IMG/VR virus record: IMGVR_UViG_3300013121_000002
Location: 43,976-107,975 of that record
Length of the DNA: 64,000 nt
From: a virus
Taxonomy: Duplodnaviria; Heunggongvirae; Uroviricota; Caudoviricetes
Direction: 5' to 3' (one strand)
Part shown: positions 4,084-64,000 of the stretch, one piece after another
Position numbering within the stretch: position 1 is the first letter of the stretch
Layout: each line of letters opens with the position of its first letter
Notes under the pieces: model-generated
Database searches by the model: none
What the model was told of the DNA's origin: nothing
Seen by the model: only the letters and a program-made list of their open reading frames with translations
Translations under genes and position numbers: made by a program

Positions 4084-5704
4084 CAACGGCCACCACGAAC
4101 TGCGTGCGGCCACCTTCCTGCATCTGCTCCTGCGCCAGCCTGATCGCCTTGGCGAGGAGAGCCGCCTTCTCAGCAGCGGGCTCCTTCTCCGCCTTGCCGG
4201 GTGCCTTGTTGTCCCCGGTGCCGTTCATCATCGCCGTGATCTTCGCCTCGCGCTCGGCGACCGTAGCAGCATCGACCGAGCCGGGCGGCGGGATGCCCAT
4301 CGACTGGTTGCGCAGCAGAGCCAGTTCCTCCTCGCTGCGCTCGGGCTGGCGCGACACGCCGAGGAGATCGCGCACGTCGTCGATCACCGGATCGTCCGGG
4401 CTCAGCACCGCACCCGCCGTCGCCATGTCGCGTAGCGCCGCCGTCACCTCGGCCACGTCCTTGAACGTCACGTCCTCGGGAACGAACGTCGGCTTGAGCG
4501 CATCGTCGAAGCCATTGAGCTTCCACAGCGGGATGAGAATGTCCCGGTCGAACGCAGCGGCGATGTTGTCGAGCACGGCGTTCGCGATCAGGTACAGGTT
4601 CCGGCTCTTGTCCACCGCGAGCGCACGGTTGCCGCCCTGATCGCCCATCATCAACGATTCGGTGCCGAGGATGCGCGCCATTTCACGCTGAAGCCGGTCG
4701 ATGGCGACGTTCAGTTCGGCGAGGCCAGCGCCGTTGCCCTGCAACAGGTCGATGCCCCACTGCATCGCCCCGGCGATCTTGAGCCCGTCCGCCGCCTGCG
4801 ACTGGTAGGGCACGCTGTCGAGCACGAGCGACGTGTCGCTCTGCTTCATTTCGAGTTGGACAAAATTCTTGAGGTCGTCGATCAGGCCCTGCGCCTGATC
4901 CTTGGTCAGCTTGCCGTCCTTGACCATCTGCTGGAGCAGGCTGATCGGAGCCCGGCCAATCGGCGTGCCGCGCAGGTCGCGCTCGAACGCACGCGCCTCC
5001 AGTTCGAGGTAGGTCTTGAAACGCTCGTAGGGCTCGGCGAGGTGACGGAACATCCCCAGCCCCTCCGGGCTGTCAGTCAGCGTGTCCTCGACGAGGTAGA
5101 CGAGCTTGCCACGCGGCAGGCCGAGCACGACGCCGGTCATCGGGTGCCGCTGCCACACGCCGGTCACGACACCGTTCTCATCGACCTCCCAGCGATCCAC
5201 CGTGTGCTGCGGGCGACCCTCGATGTCGGCGAAACCAATCTGGCCGTCGTCCCGCTTCTTGGCGGTCCACTCCTGCAAACCAAATCCATGGAAACGATAC
5301 ATGCCCGCGCGGCGCACAATGCGCGGCCACGTCGTCGCCATGTCATGCATCACGTCCTCAACGAACTGCGCCGCCTTCTCCGCTTCAGGCGACACCTTGC
5401 CATCGACCTCGGCAGGCTTCACCGTCCACTGCGGGTGACCGAGCAGGTTGAGAAAATGATGAACCGAGGCGGCGACGATACTGACGTTCGTCGCGATCTC
5501 GGATGCCGTGCGGTACTTCTCGGTGCCGGTCCATTTGGACGACCGCTCGAATGTGCGAACCAGTCCGCCATAGATGGCGGTGCCGCCCGTACCCATTTCC
5601 TTGAACGGTGCGATCCGCGGCACCGTCTGGCCGGTAACGGCAGTCAGCACGCGCTTGAGCAAGCTCGGCGGACGAACGATGGAATCGCTCACCTTGGCGT
5701 CCAT
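4076..5704 (-). CDS. Portal protein (putative)
   Basis: 542-aa ORF sits between the terminase large subunit and the MuF-position polyvalent protein. Size and acidic C-terminus are typical of portals. The call rests on synteny and size only. Confidence 0.55.
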   Translation of the reverse strand: MDAKVSDSIVRPPSLLKRVLTAVTGQTVPRIAPFKEMGTGGTAIYGGLVRTFERSSKWTGTEKYRTASEIATNVSIVAASVHHFLNLLGHPQWTVKPAEVDGKVSPEAEKAAQFVEDVMHDMATTWPRIVRRAGMYRFHGFGLQEWTAKKRDDGQIGFADIEGRPQHTVDRWEVDENGVVTGVWQRHPMTGVVLGLPRGKLVYLVEDTLTDSPEGLGMFRHLAEPYERFKTYLELEARAFERDLRGTPIGRAPISLLQQMVKDGKLTKDQAQGLIDDLKNFVQLEMKQSDTSLVLDSVPYQSQAADGLKIAGAMQWGIDLLQGNGAGLAELNVAIDRLQREMARILGTESLMMGDQGGNRALAVDKSRNLYLIANAVLDNIAAAFDRDILIPLWKLNGFDDALKPTFVPEDVTFKDVAEVTAALRDMATAGAVLSPDDPVIDDVRDLLGVSRQPERSEEELALLRNQSMGIPPPGSVDAATVAEREAKITAMMNGTGDNKAPGKAEKEPAAEKAALLAKAIRLAQEQMQEGGRTQFVVAVDE

Positions 5705-12613: not shown

Positions 12614-13333
12614 TCACTCCTGCGCGAGCCGGGCCTTGTCGTCGTCGCTGTATTCCATCGCCGACCCAACGAGCCCGTAGGCACCGCGCAGACCCGCCGT
12701 AACCTCCATCGTCGCCCTCATGTTGCGTACCGAGGAGCGCACCGTCTGCCTCGCGTCGTTGCCAAGCGAAGCTGCCTGCTCGGCGTTGTCGAAGCTCGCG
12801 CCGAGGAAGATCACCTGCCAGCCCTTGGCCCGGCACGCATCGAGCAGCGCCTTCGCACCATCGCGCGTGAGTTCGGTGCTGGCGTTCTCCTGACCGTCCG
12901 TGACGATGATGATCGCCACCTTGTCGTACTGGACGCCGCCGATGCCCTCATTGGCGAGGTTGACGATCCTGCCGACCGCATCGTTGAGCGGGGTCCAGCC
13001 GCGCGGGATCGCGTCCTCGTTCGACACCGGCCGCCACGTCGGCGGCGTGATCCGGTCGCGGATCACCTCGAACTTGAACTCGCCCGCTGGCTTGTCGAAC
13101 GTCGCGAGCGTCACCCCGGTGTCCACCTTGTCGGCCGCGAGCTTCGCGACGTAGGCGTTGATCGCCGCCAGCGATTCGGTCCACTTGCCCTGCTCGCTCA
13201 TCGACTGCGAGCGGTCGAGAAGAATGAAATCATGTTGCATCTGGTTTCTCCGTTGGTGCGGCCAGCCGAACCGGCCAGCCCAGCTTTTCCGATGTGGCAT
13301 TGAACTTGGCAGCCACCGCAGCGTCGAGATCAA
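12614..13333 (-). CDS. von Willebrand factor A (vWA) domain protein (likely start ~13240)
   Basis: MIDAS-like motif DRSQSMS, TPLNDAV, IIIVTDGQEN. Confidence 0.7.
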   Translation of the reverse strand: MISTLRWLPSSMPHRKSWAGRFGWPHQRRNQMQHDFILLDRSQSMSEQGKWTESLAAINAYVAKLAADKVDTGVTLATFDKPAGEFKFEVIRDRITPPTWRPVSNEDAIPRGWTPLNDAVGRIVNLANEGIGGVQYDKVAIIIVTDGQENASTELTRDGAKALLDACRAKGWQVIFLGASFDNAEQAASLGNDARQTVRSSVRNMRATMEVTAGLRGAYGLVGSAMEYSDDDKARLAQE

Positions 13334-42888: not shown

Positions 42889-43626
42889 GTGGCGAAACTG
42901 AACCAAATCATTGCCATCGAGAAGGGGATCAAATCCCGGACGTATGGCGAGTTGACCGAAGTCAACAAGGCGATCCAGAAGCCTGACCTGTTCAACGGCT
43001 TCTACAAATCATACCAGTCGCGTGACGACGAAGGCGACGTACTGCCTGCCGAGCGCAAACGCGTCCAGTACAACACCCGCGAGGTGTTACAGCACGTCGA
43101 GCGCCTGTCCACTGAACTCATCGACGTGACGGCGCGCAAGGATTTCACCAACTGCATCGCCAAGGCCGACGTGGTCGTCGATGGGGTTACCATCGTCACC
43201 GGAGCGCCGGTCAGCTTCCTCCTGTTTCTGGAGAAGCAGTTGACCGATCTGCATACGCTCGTCGGCAACCTGCCCGTCCTCGACGAGGCCGAGGCTTGGG
43301 CGCTCGATCCCAATTCCGGGCTCTACAAGACCGAGGGTACGCAGACCCATCGGACCAAGAAGGTCCAGAAGCCCATCGTTCTCTATCCGGCGACGCCGGA
43401 ACACCCGGCGCAGACGCAGATGGTCACGGAGGACGTGATCGCCGGTTTCTGGTCGCAGGTGAAGCACTCCGGGGCGCTGCCGAAACCGAACAAGCTGGAG
43501 CTACTGGAGCGGGTCGAGGAGCTACTGCGCGCCGTCAAGCAGGCGCGCGAGGAGGCCAACATTCAGGAGGAGGTGCCGACGCCTTCGGTCGGCGGTGCCG
43601 TTTTCCAGTACCTGCTCGGGAGCTAA
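42889..43626 (+). CDS. Hypothetical protein
   Basis: 245-aa ORF with an RBS AGGGGAGCTACCGTG upstream and unbiased composition. Confidence 0.5.
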   Translation: MAKLNQIIAIEKGIKSRTYGELTEVNKAIQKPDLFNGFYKSYQSRDDEGDVLPAERKRVQYNTREVLQHVERLSTELIDVTARKDFTNCIAKADVVVDGVTIVTGAPVSFLLFLEKQLTDLHTLVGNLPVLDEAEAWALDPNSGLYKTEGTQTHRTKKVQKPIVLYPATPEHPAQTQMVTEDVIAGFWSQVKHSGALPKPNKLELLERVEELLRAVKQAREEANIQEEVPTPSVGGAVFQYLLGS

Positions 43627-43739
43627 ACGATTACGGTGGTCCTCGATTAGGCAGAGGGGCAACGTCCACTTCACGTCCAGCGGGTAGCTCCAGCGATGGG
43701 GCGGACCCGGTAGCCAATGCGAAAGGACGCCACTAACGA

Positions 43740-44330
43740 AATAAGCTCAGCCTTGTCGTGAATTTGAGTTGCGAACGTGGGGGTTCAAATCCTCCCTCCC
43801 CGACCATGACGGGGAGTGCCGGAACGGTAGACGGGAGTCCCTTCGGGACTTGTTCGCTTCAAACTAAATCTATTCACGCAAGTTGAGCATTGCCGCGCCG
43901 ATCCTATCGAGGTGCGTCGGGTTCCAATTGAGAGGCGCTGGTTCAAATCCAGCCGCGCCCGCCATGTGGGGCGCGTGGTCCAGCGGAAGGGCGCTCAACA
44001 TGAAACTGATCCGACGTATTAAACGCCGAGGGTTGGGAGAAGTCGCGGTACAAGCCCCGGCAGTCTAGGCTAGTGCTGCCGGGGCACCTATCCCAGAGGT
44101 TCCAGCTTGGGGAACGGATCAGCGGCCAAGAGGTTCAAAGGCCACGGACCTGCGGGTAGCTCGACGGAGCAAAACCTGCCAACGCTGATCCAGCAATTCG
44201 TGCTCGGAGAATAGATCACCGGGGACCGAGAGGGGGTCCGCCACCTCCTGTAGAACAGCCCGGTGCAGCTTACGCCTGTCTGCACCGAGCCAAAGCCTAC
44301 CTCCCGGTGATCCCTATCAAGGGATAATCA
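43740..44330 (+). ncRNA. ORF-free region with tRNA-like fragments: two T-arm + 3' acceptor + CCA elements, each immediately followed by its complementary 5' acceptor strand (permuted tRNA-like/Y-RNA-like modules), plus a strong 10-bp hairpin
   Basis: GGGGGUUCAAAUCCUCC-CUCCCCG-A-CCA-uga-CGGGGAG at ~43768-43806. GCUGGUUCAAAUCCAGC-CGCGCCC-G-CCA-ugu-GGGCGCG at ~43925-43967. D-loop-like AACGGUAGA/AGCGG follows each. Hairpin GCCCCGGCAG/CUGCCGGGGC at ~44043-44073. Confidence 0.35.
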
Positions 44331-44331
44331 A

Positions 44332-44556
44332 ATGGACGAGATCATTGCGGCCTTGAAGCCGCTGGCCGCCATCGCTGACGCCTACGATGACGACGGGCTC
44401 GACGAGGAGCGGCCAGACTGGATCAGGCGTGGCGTGTCCAAGCCGCTAGAAGGGCGCGAGGTCGAGCTTCTATCCGGGCGCGGCGGTCGCCGCCTGCTGA
44501 CCCTGAACGACGCGTTCGAGGCGCGGCGCGTCCTGCGCAAGCTCCAGCAGGGCTAA
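44332..44556 (+). CDS. Hypothetical protein
   Basis: 74-aa ORF. Confidence 0.4.
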   Translation: MDEIIAALKPLAAIADAYDDDGLDEERPDWIRRGVSKPLEGREVELLSGRGGRRLLTLNDAFEARRVLRKLQQG

Positions 44557-44834
44557 CCGTTCGGCTCGGGATCGAACGTCTCGATGGTGAAGGCGGTGAG
44601 CGGCCGGTTCGGTTTCCCATCAGGGCGGCGCGGCCGAACGGTACTGGTCTGCTGCCAGCACGCCATCGCCGACGCCACATCCGGGAAGCGCATCGCCTCG
44701 GACAGATTGTCGGTGGCGTGAACGTCGCCGAGCCCGCCGTGGCCGTCCGGGTCGTAGCTCTTGAGGTAGAGCCCGTCGAACTCCGGCATCCGGTGGCCGC
44801 TGGCAAGCTCGATCAGTTTGATTACGCGGGTCAT
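44553..44834 (-). CDS. Hypothetical protein (start MTRVIKLIELASGH)
   Basis: RBS GGAAACGAAAACAAAATG. ATGA overlap with the upstream gene. The track ORF 44553..44942 has a doubtful Arg-rich N-terminal extension. Confidence 0.4.
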   Translation of the reverse strand: MTRVIKLIELASGHRMPEFDGLYLKSYDPDGHGGLGDVHATDNLSEAMRFPDVASAMACWQQTSTVRPRRPDGKPNRPLTAFTIETFDPEPNG

Positions 44835-45202
44835 TTTGTTTTCGTTTCCTTTCCCATGAGGATCGCCTGCGCCCGCTCGATGTCGGCGGCCGTCAGGCCG
44901 GGCGGCGGGGTGCCGGTGAGGTGGAACCGCAGGTCGCGCCACATCTTGGCGACGGCGGTTTCCTCGGCAAGGGCTTCACGCGAGAGGTAGTAGCGGATTG
45001 GCGGCGTGAAGTCGTTCACCGGCCGGGGCCGTAAAGTTTCGATGTCCACACCGCCGTAGACGCGCCTATTCTCGACCAGCGCAACCTCTGCCCAACGCCG
45101 ACCGATCTTGGTGACGACCACATCCACAGGAAGCCGGGCAGCGCCGTAATGATTGTTGATGGCGACGAGGGTCTGCCCGATGTGTGTGATTACCTTGGTC
45201 AT
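44831..45202 (-). CDS. Hypothetical protein
   Basis: 123-aa ORF. RBS GGAGTAAACGAAAATG. Confidence 0.45.
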   Translation of the reverse strand: MTKVITHIGQTLVAINNHYGAARLPVDVVVTKIGRRWAEVALVENRRVYGGVDIETLRPRPVNDFTPPIRYYLSREALAEETAVAKMWRDLRFHLTGTPPPGLTAADIERAQAILMGKETKTK

Positions 45203-63074: not shown

Positions 63075-63680
63075 CGAACGCGTCTATCTAGCCGCCAGCC
63101 TCTGGTGTAGAGCACGGTTACTTCACACTTCCAATGTGACCAACGACCGGGTTCGTTATTTCCGAGGCGACCATCATTCCCGCAGGTCGCGGGGAGCGTC
63201 TGGTGTTCGAGCACGGCTACTTCGATTGATAATCGAGAGGTTGTTGGTTCGATCCCAATCAGGCCCCGCAAGGGACTTGTAGCTCAACTGGTAGAGCACT
63301 AAGCCGGGTTCAGCTTTCTTCCGGCGCTCCACCCCGACCTGCGGGAGTGTGTGGTGTGAGGGAGTTGGTGTTAGGTTACGGTTACTTCGGATGAAAGCTA
63401 CGGGCTCTTAACCCGTTCGCTCCATGGTGGTTCAAATCCACCAAACCGGAACCGCCTTTTCCACTCCCTCGCTCCACACACGCAGATCAATTCGAGTGGC
63501 GCGTACCCTCTGGTGCAGATCACGGGTACTTCGCCTCTGGAGCGGGAGGTCGTTGGTTCGAATCCAACCGGGTCCACCATTCTACGGGCCTGTAGCTCAG
63601 CGGTTAGAGCGCCTAACGTAACCGGGATCGTCCTTTCCGAGGATACGCCCCACTCGAATTGATTTGCATTGGCCGCCCCT
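63075..63680 (+). ncRNA. Cluster of tRNA-like / Y-RNA-like (YrlA-type) structured RNAs upstream of a Ro60-like gene
   Basis: Canonical D-arms: GTAGCTCAACTGGTAGAGC at ~63280, GTAGCTCAGCGGTTAGAGC at ~63598. T-arms with encoded CCA: GTTGGTTCGAATCCAACCGGGTCCACCA at ~63560; GGTGGTTCAAATCCACC at ~63427; GTTGGTTCGATCCCAAT at ~63244. None assembles into a colinear canonical tRNA. A tCTGGTGyAGAgCACGGyTACTTCG module repeats four times. Confidence 0.45.
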
Positions 63681-63683
63681 GCT

Positions 63684-63709
63684 CCTACATCCAGAGGTGT
63701 AGGTTTTTT
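63684..63709 (+). terminator. Rho-independent terminator
   Basis: CCUACA-UCCAGAGG-UGUAGG followed by UUUUUU. Confidence 0.55.
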
Positions 63710-63726
63710 CTAACAGGGGAATGACC

Positions 63727-64000
63727 ATGCGTACCAACCGCTCAAGCACTGCTCCTGCGCCGCGCACCCACGAGGGTGCGGTCGCTTCGCGAATCAACGC
63801 CGAGGCTCAGCTTCGACGCTCCGTGATGTCGTGCCTCCTGTGGGAGGACGAGTTCTATGAGTCTGGCGAGGAGATCGCCAAGCGCATTGCCCGCCTCGTC
63901 GGCGAGGTGAAGCCCGAGATCGTTAGCGCCATCGCTATCGAGGCGCGGTCGGACGGCAACCTCCGTCACGTCCCGCTCCTGCTCGCGCGCACGCTGGCGC
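63727..64000 (+). CDS. rsr: Ro60/TROVE-domain (Rsr-like) protein, N-terminal part; continues beyond the window
   Basis: MRTNRSSTAPAPRTHEGAVASRINAEAQLRRSVMSCLLWEDEFYESGEEIAKRIARLVGEVKPEIVSAIAIEARSDGNLRHVPLLLARTLA matches the TROVE N-terminal pattern (LRRFL.LGSEGGTYY...E..A...ALFALA). Confidence 0.55.
   Translation, partial: MRTNRSSTAPAPRTHEGAVASRINAEAQLRRSVMSCLLWEDEFYESGEEIAKRIARLVGEVKPEIVSAIAIEARSDGNLRHVPLLLARTLA

What the first reader, a model, noticed from the sequence alone, without database searches (positions are those of the whole stretch)
43740..44330. Permuted tRNA-like modules: T-arm + 3' acceptor + CCA immediately followed by the complementary 5' acceptor strand
Two elements have a canonical T-loop (GGUUCAAAUCC), a 7-nt 3' acceptor strand, a discriminator and an encoded CCA. 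Each is followed 3-4 nt later by the exact complement of the acceptor strand (CUCCCCG...CGGGGAG; CGCGCCC...GGGCGCG) and then a D-loop-like segment. No matching 5' half exists upstream, so these are not ordinary tRNA genes. The order T-arm / closed acceptor hairpin / D-arm matches tRNA-mimicking domains of bacterial Y-RNA-like RNAs (YrlA-type) or a permuted tRNA/tmRNA-like gene. Alternatively they are tRNA 3' fragments from integration (attP-like) events.
Basis: partly seen in the sequence, partly recalled or inferred. Interest (0 to 1): 0.65.

Follow-up and report, generated by a model that had tools for sequence, protein, structure and literature searches.

The report
Phage double tRNA-mimic RNA with DUF7873
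The two odd "inside-out tRNA" elements are real and belong to one ~340-nt structured non-coding RNA that many different phages carry directly behind the same unknown gene (DUF7873); it resembles bacterial Y-RNA-like tRNA mimics but usually comes without their Ro60 partner and appears not to have been described.

Summary
Observation confirmed. At 43779-43835 and 43937-43992 (+) lie two T-arm / 7-bp closed acceptor hairpin (N-CCA in the loop) / D-arm units that ARAGORN and Rfam (gathering threshold) do not call. They are two domains of one conserved RNA (about 43745-44084) immediately downstream of a DUF7873 gene (42889-43626). The same protein+RNA pair occurs in 76 of 80 diverse viral contigs and in cultured phages of Gordonia, Arthrobacter, Klebsiella, Ralstonia, Rhizobium and Vibrio, often inside tRNA gene clusters. 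Covariation is strong (28/30 pairs compensatory). Rejoined in silico, 44/47 second modules are called normal tRNAs. The architecture is that of YrlA (Y RNA-like), but membership tests fail: 30.9 bits against a cut-off of 69, no GNCGAA motif, and Ro60 is not a regular neighbour. The phage does encode a separate Ro60 gene with its own YrlA-type RNAs at the window's 3' edge (63236-64000). tmRNA, functional permuted tRNA and att-remnant readings are rejected. Most likely this is a tRNA-mimic RNA working with DUF7873. RNase P cleavage at the acceptor loops is plausible here but not universal, and the function is inferred, not shown. New variant of a known kind; no Rfam family or paper found.

The parts
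42889..43626 (+). DUF7873 (PF25283) gene, 245 aa; the conserved protein partner or neighbour of the RNA
   Evidence: Pfam E=6.8e-96. It lies directly upstream of the RNA in every relative. AF2 model pLDDT 92 with no fold match.
43627..43744 (+). Spacer specific to this phage between the DUF7873 stop codon and the conserved RNA; function unknown
   Evidence: Absent from relatives in alignment A1. Its fold is no better than shuffles (z=+0.24). No promoter- or terminator-like site.
43745..43888 (+). Domain 1: a long closing rod (43745-43776 with 43852-43888) carrying tRNA-like module 1
   Evidence: The MFE fold gives exactly this shape, z=-3.7. Rod helices GCUCA:UGAGC and CUGAG:CUCAG-type are conserved with some compensatory changes. 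Conserved blocks CAAGCUCAG and CUCAGAUUAUUC..CAAG.UGAGCAUUGCC.
43779..43795 (+). Module 1 T-arm (GGGGG-UUCAAAU-CCUCC)
   Evidence: the T-stem covaries across 36 relatives.
43796..43816 (+). Module 1 closed acceptor hairpin: CUCCCCG, A-CCA-UGA loop, CGGGGAG
   Evidence: There are 36 different acceptor-stem sequences among 47 relatives, all 7/7 paired, although pairing was a selection criterion. The position after the stem is A in 33/47.
43817..43851 (+). Module 1 U8-G9, D-arm (CCG-GAACGGUAGA-CGG; resembles a class II tRNA-Leu D-arm from memory) and an extra hairpin AGUCCC-UUC-GGGACU at the anticodon-arm position
   Evidence: D-stem covariation. The tRNA-Leu resemblance is recalled, not tested.
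43892..43912 (+). 5' strands of enclosing helix A (GCCGCG 43892-97) and helix B (43899-43905), then the conserved single-stranded RAUCGA block (43905-43910)
   Evidence: Helix B: 7 of 7 pairs have compensatory changes. Helix A covaries by eye among close relatives. RAUCRA is present in 40/47 relatives.
43913..44018 (+). Domain 2: outer stem (43913-19 with 44012-18), internal loops, anticodon-like stem (UUGAG 43928-32 with CUCAA 43994-98) and tRNA-like module 2
   Evidence: Rfam YrlA full-length alignment, 30.9 bits, E=1.4e-4. Outer stem: 7 of 7 pairs compensatory. Un-permuted form called a 74-nt cloverleaf tRNA by ARAGORN.
43937..43953 (+). Module 2 T-arm (GCUGG-UUCAAAU-CCAGC)
   Evidence: 4 of 5 T-stem pairs have compensatory changes.
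43954..43975 (+). Module 2 closed acceptor hairpin: CGCGCCC, G-CCA-UGUG loop, GGGCGCG
   Evidence: 42 different stems among 47 relatives; N-C-Y after the stem in 45/47.
43976..43993 (+). Module 2 U8-G9, class I D-arm (GUCC-AGCGGAA-GGGC) and G26
   Evidence: D-stem covariation.
44018..44049 (+). Near-invariant AUUAAACGCC block (44018-27), 3' strand of helix B (44029-35), GGGAGAAGU linker, 3' strand of helix A (CGCGGU 44044-49)
   Evidence: UUAAAYG is present in 42/47 relatives. This block was the pattern used to retrieve relatives.
44055..44084 (+). Terminal GC-rich hairpin (CCCCGGCAG...CUGCCGGGG); probable 3' end or weak terminator of the RNA
   Evidence: Present at the same place with different sequences in relatives and part of the MFE fold. 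The terminator scan does not call it because there is no U-run.
44085..44331 (+). Further structured but non-conserved non-coding stretch up to the next ORF; whether it belongs to the RNA is uncertain
   Evidence: z=-3.4 for 44020-44320. Not alignable to relatives. L003/L004 carry a third T-arm/ACCA unit at the equivalent place.

Best explanation
The region encodes one structured non-coding RNA of about 340 nt (roughly 43745-44084, + strand). It is probably co-transcribed with the upstream DUF7873 gene. It carries two complete tRNA cloverleaves that are opened where the anticodon loop would be and closed at the acceptor end, which is the YrlA (Y RNA-like) type of tRNA mimic. Each mimic sits on a long stem, and conserved helices and invariant single-stranded blocks join the two. 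DUF7873 and this RNA form a self-contained two-part cassette that has spread through phages of very different hosts, often inside phage tRNA clusters.

Proposed mechanism. The RNA folds into two L-shaped tRNA look-alikes that lack anticodons. They engage proteins that recognise the tRNA elbow and acceptor end, and DUF7873 binds the conserved non-tRNA blocks to form a ribonucleoprotein. In this phage the stems are 7 bp, the loops are short (ACCAUGA and GCCAUGUG), and CCA is encoded as in the phage's own tRNA genes. So host RNase P probably cuts 5' of C43810 and G43969, and trimming would leave CCA ends while the pieces stay annealed, as shown experimentally for Mycobacterium smegmatis YrlA. The likely role is in tRNA or RNA surveillance and repair, or as a decoy or scaffold for tRNA-binding host factors during infection.

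Shown here: the structure, the conservation, the linkage to DUF7873, and the distinctness from tmRNA and from the Ro60-adjacent RNAs. Inferred: transcription, DUF7873 binding, RNase P cleavage and the biological role.
For: - Anatomy; the YrlA model aligns over its full length.
- Linkage: at least one strict module lies within 900 nt downstream of DUF7873 in 71/80 viral loci (two modules in 49), against 3, 2 and 0 in control regions. My covariance model R1 gives a full-length hit of 50-147 bits at that position in 76/80 loci and nowhere else at that level in 1.56 Mb.
- Host range: the pair is present in Arthrobacter Mimi, Gordonia Phendrix and Fryberger, Klebsiella FBKp24, Ralstonia RSL1, Rhizobium Y1_11 and Y65, and Vibrio K481.
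- Structure: 28/30 pairs compensatory; 94.8% paired against 60% in shuffles; covariation score 0.92 against 0.25 (0/500 shuffles) and 0.12-0.19 for slid registers.
- tRNA nature: 44/47 un-permuted module 2 sequences and 28/47 module 1 sequences are called tRNAs, against 6 and 7 in the controls.
- Cassette: no other protein family recurs nearby; the next most frequent is in 8/79 loci.
- Context: a tRNA or tmRNA gene on the same strand within 1.5 kb in 31/60 loci; RNA ligase and RtcB directly downstream in L009; RtcB within 10 kb in 6/80.
- Co-transcription: no promoter- or terminator-like site between the gene and the RNA.
- RNase P precedent: M. smegmatis YrlA with a 7-bp stem is cut by RNase P and receives CCA (PMC4201824). 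The phage's tRNA-Asn gene encodes CCA. N-C-Y follows the stem in 37/47 and 45/47 relatives.
- Distinct from Ro60-linked RNAs: in this window and in RHph_Y65, the Ro60-adjacent modules match only the tRNA-like core of R1, not its flanks.
Against: - There are no expression data, so the transcript and its ends are inferred.
- Nothing shows that DUF7873 binds RNA. It is acidic to neutral (pI 5.4-7.9) and has no recognisable RNA-binding fold.
- In many relatives the acceptor loop is a long hairpin that pairs the CCA, so RNase P cleavage cannot be a general part of the mechanism.
- This phage encodes Ro60, so the RNA might serve that protein here.
- The acceptor-stem statistics are partly circular, because perfect pairing was a detection criterion. 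The other helices are free of this bias.
- The window sequence was in the seed alignment of R1, so its own 142-bit score is by construction.
Confidence: 0.58

Rival explanations
1. The RNAs are ordinary members of the YrlA/Y RNA family that work with Ro60 (Rsr), either the phage's own protein or the host's. DUF7873 is then a neighbour without direct involvement, or an effector that the Y RNA tethers to Ro60.
For: - Same architecture, and a full-length alignment to Rfam YrlA.
- This phage encodes a TROVE/Ro60 protein starting at 63721.
- The phage's own Ro60-adjacent RNAs score no better on the YrlA model (28.1 and 32.8 bits) than module 2 does (30.9), so failing the cut-off does not exclude membership in this lineage.
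- TROVE is strongly over-represented among DUF7873 phage records: the ~200-kb Rhizobium phages carry both genes, about 5.5-6.6 kb apart.
- Y RNAs are known to tether Ro60 to effector proteins (PMC4201824).
Against: - Ro60 lies within 10 kb of DUF7873 in only 2/80 loci, and the complete Fryberger genome has none.
- No Vibrio, Gordonia, Klebsiella, Serratia, Arthrobacter or cyanophage record with DUF7873 has a TROVE hit.
- Here the Ro60 gene is 19.6 kb away and has its own adjacent modules.
- GNCGAAN0-1G is not enriched (4/47 and 0/47; chance about 1.5).
- The flanking helices and motifs of the DUF7873-linked RNA are absent from the Ro60-adjacent RNAs.
- Only about 5% of bacteria encode Ro60 (PMC4201824), so a host partner is usually unavailable.
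Confidence: 0.2
2. The RNA is a purely cis-acting 3' untranslated element of the DUF7873 mRNA or the tRNA operon. The tRNA-like structures would serve as RNase P/RNase Z punctuation marks and as exonuclease blocks that define and stabilise the mRNA's 3' end, with no function in trans.
For: - The RNA always lies directly 3' of DUF7873 on the same strand, with a short spacer in most relatives and no promoter-like site between them.
- It is embedded in tRNA clusters that are processed by RNase P.
- tRNA-like 3' elements that are cut by RNase P are known elsewhere, for example MALAT1/mascRNA (own knowledge).
Against: - A stabiliser needs only a hairpin. Here about 340 nt, two full cloverleaves, two enclosing helices and several invariant single-stranded blocks (RAUCRA 40/47, UUAAAYG 42/47) are conserved across phages whose DUF7873 proteins share only 31-47% identity with the one here.
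- Many members have long paired acceptor extensions that would not suit RNase P.
Confidence: 0.12
3. The region is a circularly permuted tRNA or two-piece tmRNA-like gene. Its processed pieces would reassemble, be aminoacylated and act on the ribosome.
For: - The order is permuted, with a discriminator and encoded CCA.
- Partial hits to the beta_tmRNA model cover the T-arm and acceptor part (16.5 and 13.8 bits).
- The likely hosts use permuted tmRNA: relative L001 carries one.
- Module 1 keeps A at the discriminator position in 33/47 relatives and has a tRNA-Leu-like D-arm. From memory, LeuRS does not read the anticodon.
Against: - There is no 7-nt anticodon loop, because the anticodon stem runs on into a long stem.
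- There is no conserved reading frame after either module: the alignment has 1-nt indels and the stretch forms covarying helix B.
- G3:U70 occurs in 1/47 of each module.
- tmRNA models score far below their cut-offs.
- Relatives carry a separate tmRNA that scores above gathering (L001, Phendrix) or is called by ARAGORN (L069).
- CCA is missing in about 40% of relatives, and in some it is base-paired inside a long hairpin.
Confidence: 0.05
4. The elements are remnants of tRNA 3' ends left by integration events (attP-like cores) and have no function of their own.
For: - tRNA 3' ends with CCA are typical att cores (own knowledge).
- One relative (L014) has an integrase and a tRNA-Pro gene about 2.5 kb downstream.
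Against: - Each element also has the complementary 5' acceptor strand, a D-arm and a closing stem.
- Compensatory changes maintain every helix across dozens of lineages.
- The position relative to DUF7873 is fixed.
- Neither 25-mer occurs in 185,579 bacterial and archaeal species genomes.
- No integrase was found among the neighbouring ORFs scanned in the window.
Confidence: 0.01

Closest known systems
YrlA / bacterial Y RNA-like RNAs bound by Ro60 (Rsr): Rfam RF02553; Chen et al. 2014, PMC4201824
   Same: Same topology: a stem formed by the 5' and 3' flanks, an anticodon-like stem, a T-arm, an acceptor-like stem closed by a loop, and a D-arm. In other words, a tRNA opened at the anticodon loop. 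The Rfam model aligns over its full length to module 2. Like YrlA/YrlB, more than one RNA module is encoded in tandem. The RNA-repair neighbours (RtcB, RNA ligase) seen in some relatives recall the rsr-yrlBA-rtcBA operon (operon layout from memory).
   Different: Scores are 31-40 bits against the 69-bit cut-off. There is no GNCGAAN0-1G motif. The conserved neighbour is DUF7873, upstream of the RNA, rather than Ro60. The two tRNA-like domains are joined in one RNA by extra covarying helices and their own invariant blocks (RAUCGA, UUAAACGCC, CAAGCUCAG). Module 1 carries an extra hairpin and a class II-like D-arm. Ro60-adjacent RNAs in the same genomes lack these flanks.
Mycobacterium smegmatis YrlA (7-bp acceptor stem, cut by RNase P, CCA added): PMC4201824
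   Same: A 7-bp acceptor stem closed by a short loop. This is the direct precedent for RNase P cutting such a loop in vivo and in vitro, with both halves remaining together.
   Different: Here CCA is already encoded. There are two such modules per RNA. Cleavage is untested, and many relatives have long paired loops.
Two-piece (circularly permuted) tmRNA of Alpha- and Betaproteobacteria and cyanobacteria: Rfam RF01849, RF01850, RF04321
   Same: The same permuted gene order, T-arm, 3' acceptor strand and CCA followed by an intervening loop and the 5' acceptor strand. Processing at that loop by tRNA-maturing enzymes (own knowledge).
   Different: No tag reading frame, no G3:U70, a full D-arm rather than the degenerate D-loop of tmRNA, and no pseudoknots detected. 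Model scores are 14-16 bits against a cut-off of 84. Relatives have a separate tmRNA.
Large phage-associated structured RNAs found near tRNA genes (GOLLD, ROOL); from own knowledge, both in Rfam
   Same: Phage-borne, elaborate, conserved non-coding RNAs that often neighbour tRNA genes and have unknown function.
   Different: No Rfam hit to either family. This RNA is much smaller, is built from two tRNA mimics, and has a dedicated protein neighbour.
tRNA-like structures used as processing or stability elements (MALAT1 mascRNA, plant-virus 3' TLS); own knowledge
   Same: tRNA mimicry at the 3' side of a longer transcript, with recognition by RNase P or the CCA-adding enzyme.
   Different: Those are colinear rather than permuted, are single units, and belong to eukaryotic systems.

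Membership tests
YrlA (Y RNA-like, Rfam RF02553) | tRNA-like domain in the order T-arm, closed acceptor-like stem, D-arm, on a stem formed by the flanks | tested here: met
   Full-length alignment to the model. The MFE fold of module 1 shows it. Covariation supports it. Un-permuted modules are called tRNAs.
YrlA (Y RNA-like, Rfam RF02553) | Reaches the curated Rfam gathering score (69 bits) | tested here: not met
   30.9 bits in the window and 32.6-39.8 bits in relatives. Caveat: the Ro60-adjacent RNAs of this phage and of RHph_Y65 also reach only 28-37 bits.
YrlA (Y RNA-like, Rfam RF02553) | Encoded within about 4 kb of a Ro60/Rsr (TROVE) gene on the same strand (PMC4201824) | tested here: not met
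   The nearest TROVE gene starts at 63721, which is 19.6 kb downstream on the same strand. TROVE lies within 10 kb in 2/80 related loci and is absent from the complete Fryberger genome.
YrlA (Y RNA-like, Rfam RF02553) | GNCGAAN0-1G motif near the 5' end (proposed Rsr-binding site) | tested here: not met
   No match in 43700-44100. Found in 4/47 and 0/47 relatives against about 1.5 expected by chance. It is also absent from this phage's Ro60-adjacent RNAs.
YrlA (Y RNA-like, Rfam RF02553) | Physically bound by Ro60/Rsr | not testable with these tools
   Requires immunoprecipitation.
Two-piece (permuted) tmRNA | Permuted order with an encoded CCA followed by the 5' acceptor strand | tested here: met
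Two-piece (permuted) tmRNA | Conserved tag reading frame with a resume codon and a stop | tested here: not met
   The stretch after module 2 has 1-nt indels between relatives and forms covarying helix B. Frames read by eye differ in length and content among relatives.
Two-piece (permuted) tmRNA | G3:U70 alanine identity pair | tested here: not met
   Present in 1/47 of each module. In the window both modules have G3:C70.
Two-piece (permuted) tmRNA | Matches the Rfam tmRNA models or ARAGORN's tmRNA mode | tested here: not met
   ARAGORN calls none. beta_tmRNA gives 16.5 and 13.8 bits against a cut-off of 84, over the T-arm and acceptor part only.
Functional circularly permuted tRNA gene | The two halves reconstitute a complete cloverleaf | tested here: met
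   44/47 (module 2) and 28/47 (module 1) are called tRNAs by ARAGORN after in-silico rejoining, against 6/47 and 7/47 in controls.
Functional circularly permuted tRNA gene | Possesses a 7-nt anticodon loop with an anticodon | tested here: not met
   In module 2 the anticodon stem continues into an outer stem through internal loops. In module 1 the position holds a 6-7 bp hairpin with a 3-nt loop.
attP / tRNA 3'-end integration remnant | Sequence identical to the 3' end of a host tRNA gene | tested here: not met
   Exact 25-mers of both modules are absent from 185,579 species genomes. Limitation: the search needs an exact match, and the true host may be missing from the collection.
DUF7873-linked double tRNA-mimic RNA (family proposed here) | Lies directly downstream of a DUF7873 gene on the same strand | tested here: met
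   The gene ends at 43626 and the RNA starts at about 43745. The same arrangement holds in 76/80 loci.
DUF7873-linked double tRNA-mimic RNA (family proposed here) | Two modules 140-194 nt apart, an enclosing helix, and the RAUCRA and UUAAAYG flank blocks | tested here: met
   The T-loops are 158 nt apart (43783 and 43941). Helix B, UAUCGA (43905-10) and AUUAAACGCC (44018-27) are present. The R1 score of 142 bits is partly by construction, because the window was in the seed.

The most novel reading that the evidence does not exclude
DUF7873 and its double tRNA-mimic RNA form a previously unrecognised, widespread phage ribonucleoprotein that works without Ro60. It would use two anticodon-less tRNA look-alikes, cut by RNase P into annealed CCA-ended pieces in some lineages, to capture or redirect host tRNA-binding factors. 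Examples would be tRNA-targeting defence toxins, repair ligases, or processing and charging enzymes. That would make it a new class of phage tRNA-mimic effector alongside phage tRNAs and tmRNAs.
Probability: 0.35. Interest if true: 0.85.

Novelty: new variant of a known kind. Interest (0 to 1): 0.72.

Why it matters
- **Breaks the Ro60 link.** tRNA-mimicking Y-RNA-like RNAs have so far been defined by their link to Ro60. Here the same design is tied to a different, uncharacterised protein family. DUF7873 has 2,607 clusters at 50% identity and occurs in 75 cultured phage genomes, across phages of Proteobacteria and Actinobacteria; the family also reaches cyanophages, where the RNA was not found.
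- **Suggests a general phage tool.** Anticodon-less tRNA mimics may be a general phage tool rather than an accessory of Ro60.
- **Gives DUF7873 a testable partner.** Tractable systems exist to test it: SEA-PHAGES Gordonia and Arthrobacter phages, Klebsiella FBKp24 and Ralstonia RSL1.
- **Fixes annotation errors.** The modules cause false or doubtful tRNA calls, such as 'tRNA-Gln' at 63503 here and probably 'tRNA-Sup-TTA' in FBKp24. The RNA region is also sometimes annotated with small spurious ORFs.

Tried and rejected
- **Nucleotide search:** blastn of the intergenic region against 50,697 phage records found nothing, so relatives had to be reached through the flanking protein and a conserved RNA block.
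- **DUF7873 function:**
  - PHROGs, NCBIfam and PADLOC give nothing.
  - A weak PDB sequence hit to RelA/SpoT-type proteins (E=0.11) was not borne out by the profile search or the fold searches.
  - The afdb50 library was unavailable.
  - The pI of 5.4-7.9 does not support a basic RNA binder.
  - The exhaustive profile search showed a uniform single domain of about 245 aa with no informative fusions.
- **tmRNA idea:** reading frames after the UUAAAC-GCC block, checked by eye, were not conserved.
- **A pairing that failed:** a tentative GGUG:CGCC pairing next to module 2 was dropped because L006 and L009 break it.
- **Transcription signals:** promoter and terminator scans found nothing useful.
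- **Host tRNA identity:** exact-match scans of genome collections for both modules found nothing.
- **Batch Pfam scan:** the scan of 89 Ro60-sized neighbour ORFs lists only the top 25 families, so a single hidden TROVE hit could not be excluded there. A local tblastn settled it.
- **Frame error:** my first attempt to translate the edge ORF used the wrong frame and was corrected.
Full report
**1. The observation**

The window is a high-GC (61.6%) phage segment with a Mu-like portal, terminase, PolA, primase, helicases, SbcCD, RecA and a sigma factor. Between a DUF7873 gene (42889-43626, +) and a small ORF (44332-44556) lies a non-coding gap of about 700 nt.

- **Module 1:** GGGGG-UUCAAAU-CCUCC (43779-95), CUCCCCG-A-CCA-UGA-CGGGGAG (43796-816), UG, then a D-arm.
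- **Module 2:** GCUGG-UUCAAAU-CCAGC (43937-53), CGCGCCC-G-CCA-UGUG-GGGCGCG (43954-75), UG, then GUCC-AGCGGAA-GGGC.

ARAGORN, including its permuted tmRNA mode, calls nothing here, and Rfam at gathering threshold reports nothing. A strict pattern detector finds only these two sites plus one other in the whole window on both strands, and only one site in a complete 67-kb phage genome, at the homologous locus.

**2. What it is**

*Folding and Rfam.* Module 1 folds by itself into a long closing rod carrying a T-arm, a closed acceptor hairpin, a D-hairpin and one extra hairpin (z=-3.7). A permissive Rfam scan aligns the YrlA (Y RNA-like) model over its full length to module 2 at 30.9 bits, with a gathering score of 69 and a local E-value of 1.4e-4. 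The tmRNA models match only the T-arm and acceptor part at 14-16 bits.

*Relatives.* Nucleotide search found no relatives, but the flanking protein did. Related viral contigs carry the same two modules at the same place, with different yet fully complementary acceptor stems. The whole stretch of about 380 nt aligns: module 1, a linker, module 2, an invariant AUUAAACGCC block and a GC hairpin. A scan with that RNA block retrieved only loci that also have DUF7873 directly upstream.

*The link to DUF7873 is general.*
- Among 80 diverse IMG/VR loci (DUF7873 identity down to 43%), 49 have two strict modules within 900 nt downstream on the same strand, 22 have one and 9 have none. Control regions gave 3, 2 and 0.
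- Relaxed criteria give at least one module in 74/80.
- A covariance model built from 32 module-2 regions (R1) gives a full-length hit of 50-147 bits a few hundred nt after the DUF7873 stop in 76/80 loci. No comparable hit occurs elsewhere in 1.56 Mb.
- The pair is also present in cultured phages of distant hosts: Arthrobacter Mimi, Gordonia Phendrix and Fryberger, Klebsiella jumbo phage FBKp24, Ralstonia RSL1, Rhizobium Y1_11 and Y65, and Vibrio K481, always in an unannotated gap.
- DUF7873 is a large, uniform, single-domain family: 4,955 hits in one search and 2,607 clusters at 50% identity.
- No other protein family recurs within 5 kb; the next most frequent is in 8/79 loci. The cassette is therefore DUF7873 plus the RNA.
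- In 31/60 loci tRNA or tmRNA genes lie within 1.5 kb, all on the same strand.
- In the low-GC relative L009 an RNA ligase and RtcB follow directly. RtcB lies within 10 kb in 6/80 loci.

*The structure is supported statistically.* For module 2 with its flanks, 28 of 30 predicted pairs show compensatory double changes. 94.8% of cells are paired against 60.2% in shuffles. The covariation score is 0.919 against 0.252 (0 of 500 shuffles reach it) and 0.12-0.19 for slid registers. This includes the outer stem and an enclosing helix that played no part in detection. Module 1's T, acceptor and D stems covary, and its rod has two conserved helices with some compensatory changes.

*The modules are true permuted cloverleaves.* I joined the open ends with a synthetic 7-nt loop. 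ARAGORN then module-2 sequences and 28/47 module-1 sequences full-length tRNAs, against 6/47 and 7/47 when the 5' half comes from another locus. So each module is a complete tRNA cloverleaf, opened at the anticodon loop and closed at the acceptor end.

*Features of the acceptor loop.*

| Feature | Module 1 | Module 2 |
|---|---|---|
| Different acceptor-stem sequences (of 47) | 36 | 42 |
| Closing loop length | 5-37 nt | 6-33 nt |
| N-C-Y after the stem | 37/47 | 45/47 |
| Full NCCA | 26/47 | 28/47 |
| Base at the discriminator position | A in 33/47 | U in 28/47, G in 17/47 |

In several distant members the loop is a long hairpin that extends the acceptor helix and pairs the CCA. The phage's own tRNA-Asn gene encodes GCCA.

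**3. Relation to Ro60 and YrlA**

Chen et al. [quoted passage not shown] They also show that M. smegmatis YrlA, the one with a 7-bp acceptor stem, is cut by RNase P and receives CCA while both halves stay bound to Rsr.

Here the architecture criterion is met and the others are not:
- Scores are 31-40 bits against the 69-bit cut-off.
- The motif is at chance level (4/47 and 0/47).
- The family has its own flank blocks instead: RAUCRA in 40/47 and UUAAAYG in 42/47.
- Ro60 is not a regular neighbour. It lies within 10 kb in 2/80 loci and is absent from the complete Fryberger genome.
- Among cultured phages, the 75 DUF7873 records and the 61 TROVE records overlap only in the ~200-kb Rhizobium phages.

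There is an important twist at the window's 3' edge. An ORF starting at 63721 runs off the end, so the ORF list omits it, and it is the N-terminus of a TROVE/Ro60 protein. Two more YrlA-type modules lie within 500 nt upstream on the same strand, at 63236-63300 and 63522-63643. So this phage has the canonical Ro60-Y RNA locus as well, 19.6 kb from the finding.

Those Ro60-adjacent RNAs also score only 28-33 bits on the Rfam model. They match my R1 model only over the tRNA-like core and not the flanks. The same separation is seen in Rhizobium phage RHph_Y65. There the full-length R1 hit lies right after DUF7873, while several core-only modules lie in the gap before the TROVE gene.

I conclude that the DUF7873-linked RNA is a distinct family with the same architecture as YrlA. 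Failing the Rfam cut-off is not by itself decisive, because the Ro60-adjacent RNAs fail it too.

**4. Readings rejected**

- **tmRNA.** There is no conserved reading frame: the alignment has 1-nt indels and the stretch forms a covarying helix. G3:U70 occurs in 1/47. The D-arm is complete. Relatives carry their own tmRNA.
- **Functional permuted tRNA.** There is no anticodon loop.
- **att remnant.** Both strands, the D-arm and covariation are present, and neither 25-mer occurs in 185,579 species genomes.

**5. DUF7873**

**6. Mechanism: what is shown and what is inferred**

- **Shown:** one conserved, highly structured RNA with two permuted tRNA cloverleaves, strict genetic coupling to DUF7873, a frequent tRNA-cluster context, and distinctness from tmRNA and from the Ro60-adjacent RNAs.
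- **Inferred:**
  - co-transcription with DUF7873, since no promoter- or terminator-like site lies between them;
  - formation of a DUF7873-RNA particle through the invariant non-tRNA blocks;
  - recognition by tRNA-elbow and acceptor-binding host enzymes;
  - in this phage, with short loops, 7-bp stems and encoded CCA, RNase P cleavage 5' of C43810 and G43969 with the pieces staying annealed, by analogy with M. smegmatis YrlA;
  - a role in tRNA or RNA surveillance and repair, or as a decoy or scaffold.

I put about 0.58 on this overall reading. The rivals are extra Y RNAs for Ro60 (0.20), a purely cis-acting 3' element (0.12), a translation-active permuted tRNA or tmRNA (0.05) and att remnants (0.01).

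**7. Novelty**

Rfam 15 has no family for this RNA: only sub-threshold YrlA hits appear. Full-text searches for DUF7873, phage tRNA mimics and phage Y RNAs found no description. I rate it a new variant of a known kind: YrlA-type tRNA mimicry with a new conserved protein partner, a two-domain build, and wide spread among phages.

Noticed in passing
window 63721-64000 (+), runs off the window end: N-terminus of a Ro60/Rsr (TROVE) protein. The best PDB hit is a TROVE-domain protein (E=0.01, N-terminus to N-terminus). There are 252 database relatives at 57-71% identity, several carrying PF05731 or named TROVE / 60 kDa SS-A/Ro, and the phage hits are annotated as TROVE. The ORF listing omits it because it has no stop codon inside the window.
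   Followed up: yes
window 63236-63300 and 63522-63643 (+): Two more permuted tRNA-like (YrlA-type) modules directly upstream of the Ro60 gene. The second has CGGGUCC-A-CCA-UUCUAC-GGGCCUG and sits inside a long terminal stem (about 63488-63500 pairing with 63649-63661). Rfam YrlA gives 28.1 and 32.8 bits. This is the canonical Ro60-Y RNA locus of this phage.
   Followed up: partly
window 63503-63579 (+): ARAGORN's 'tRNA-Gln(ctg)' is probably a false call that uses the T-arm and acceptor 3' half of the Ro60-adjacent Y RNA. The Rfam tRNA model does not report it at gathering threshold. Weak tRNA-like hits also occur at 63196-63267 (20 bits) and 63378-63450 (24 bits).
   Followed up: partly
window 43627-43744 and 44085-44331: A spacer specific to this phage lies before the RNA, and a structured but non-conserved stretch follows it (z=-3.4). 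An 11-nt direct repeat GCGGGTAGCTC occurs at 43681 and 44142, which is marginal against chance.
   Followed up: no
window 44831-45202 (-): A protein with a phage ProQ C-terminal-like domain (PF24203, E=3.5e-12) is encoded about 750 nt downstream of the RNA on the opposite strand. ProQ-type proteins are RNA chaperones (own knowledge). It is not a conserved neighbour in relatives.
   Followed up: no
L001 6522-6774 (IMGVR_UViG_3300033405_000165): A permuted tmRNA (RF04321 at 61.5 bits, alpha_tmRNA at 58.4 bits, both above gathering) lies about 1.5 kb downstream of the DUF7873-RNA cassette in a close relative. The same contig region (L011) carries 11 tRNA genes.
   Followed up: no
L009 4579-4673 (-) / L012 7986-8081 (+): In this low-GC relative the T-arm half of module 1 is replaced by an odd 96-nt 'tRNA-Arg(tcg)' with a long insertion. 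The cassette is followed by an RNA ligase (PF09414), a 122-aa ORF and RtcB (PF01139).
   Followed up: partly
L003 about 5175-5215 (same sequence in L004): A third unit, GCAGG-UUCAAAU-CCUGC-CUCUCCG-A-CCA, follows the terminal hairpin, preceded by a possible anticodon-like hairpin containing UGG. It was not analysed further.
   Followed up: no
L100 2518-2597 (Klebsiella phage vB_KpM_FBKp24, NC_061421.1): The annotated 'tRNA-OTHER / tRNA-Sup-TTA' ends on the T-arm and acceptor 3' strand of module 2 of the DUF7873-linked RNA (T-loop at 2574). It may therefore be a mis-call of the same kind as the 'tRNA-Gln' in this window.
   Followed up: no
L098 10218-10331 (Gordonia phage Fryberger gp123); L099 2408-2563 (Vibrio phage K481): Small annotated hypothetical ORFs lie in the gap that holds the structured RNA and are probably spurious.
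   Followed up: no
window 12614-13333 (-): A stand-alone von Willebrand factor A domain protein (PF00092, E=3.9e-7). Ro60 proteins also contain a vWA domain (own knowledge), but this one is small, distant and on the other strand.
   Followed up: no
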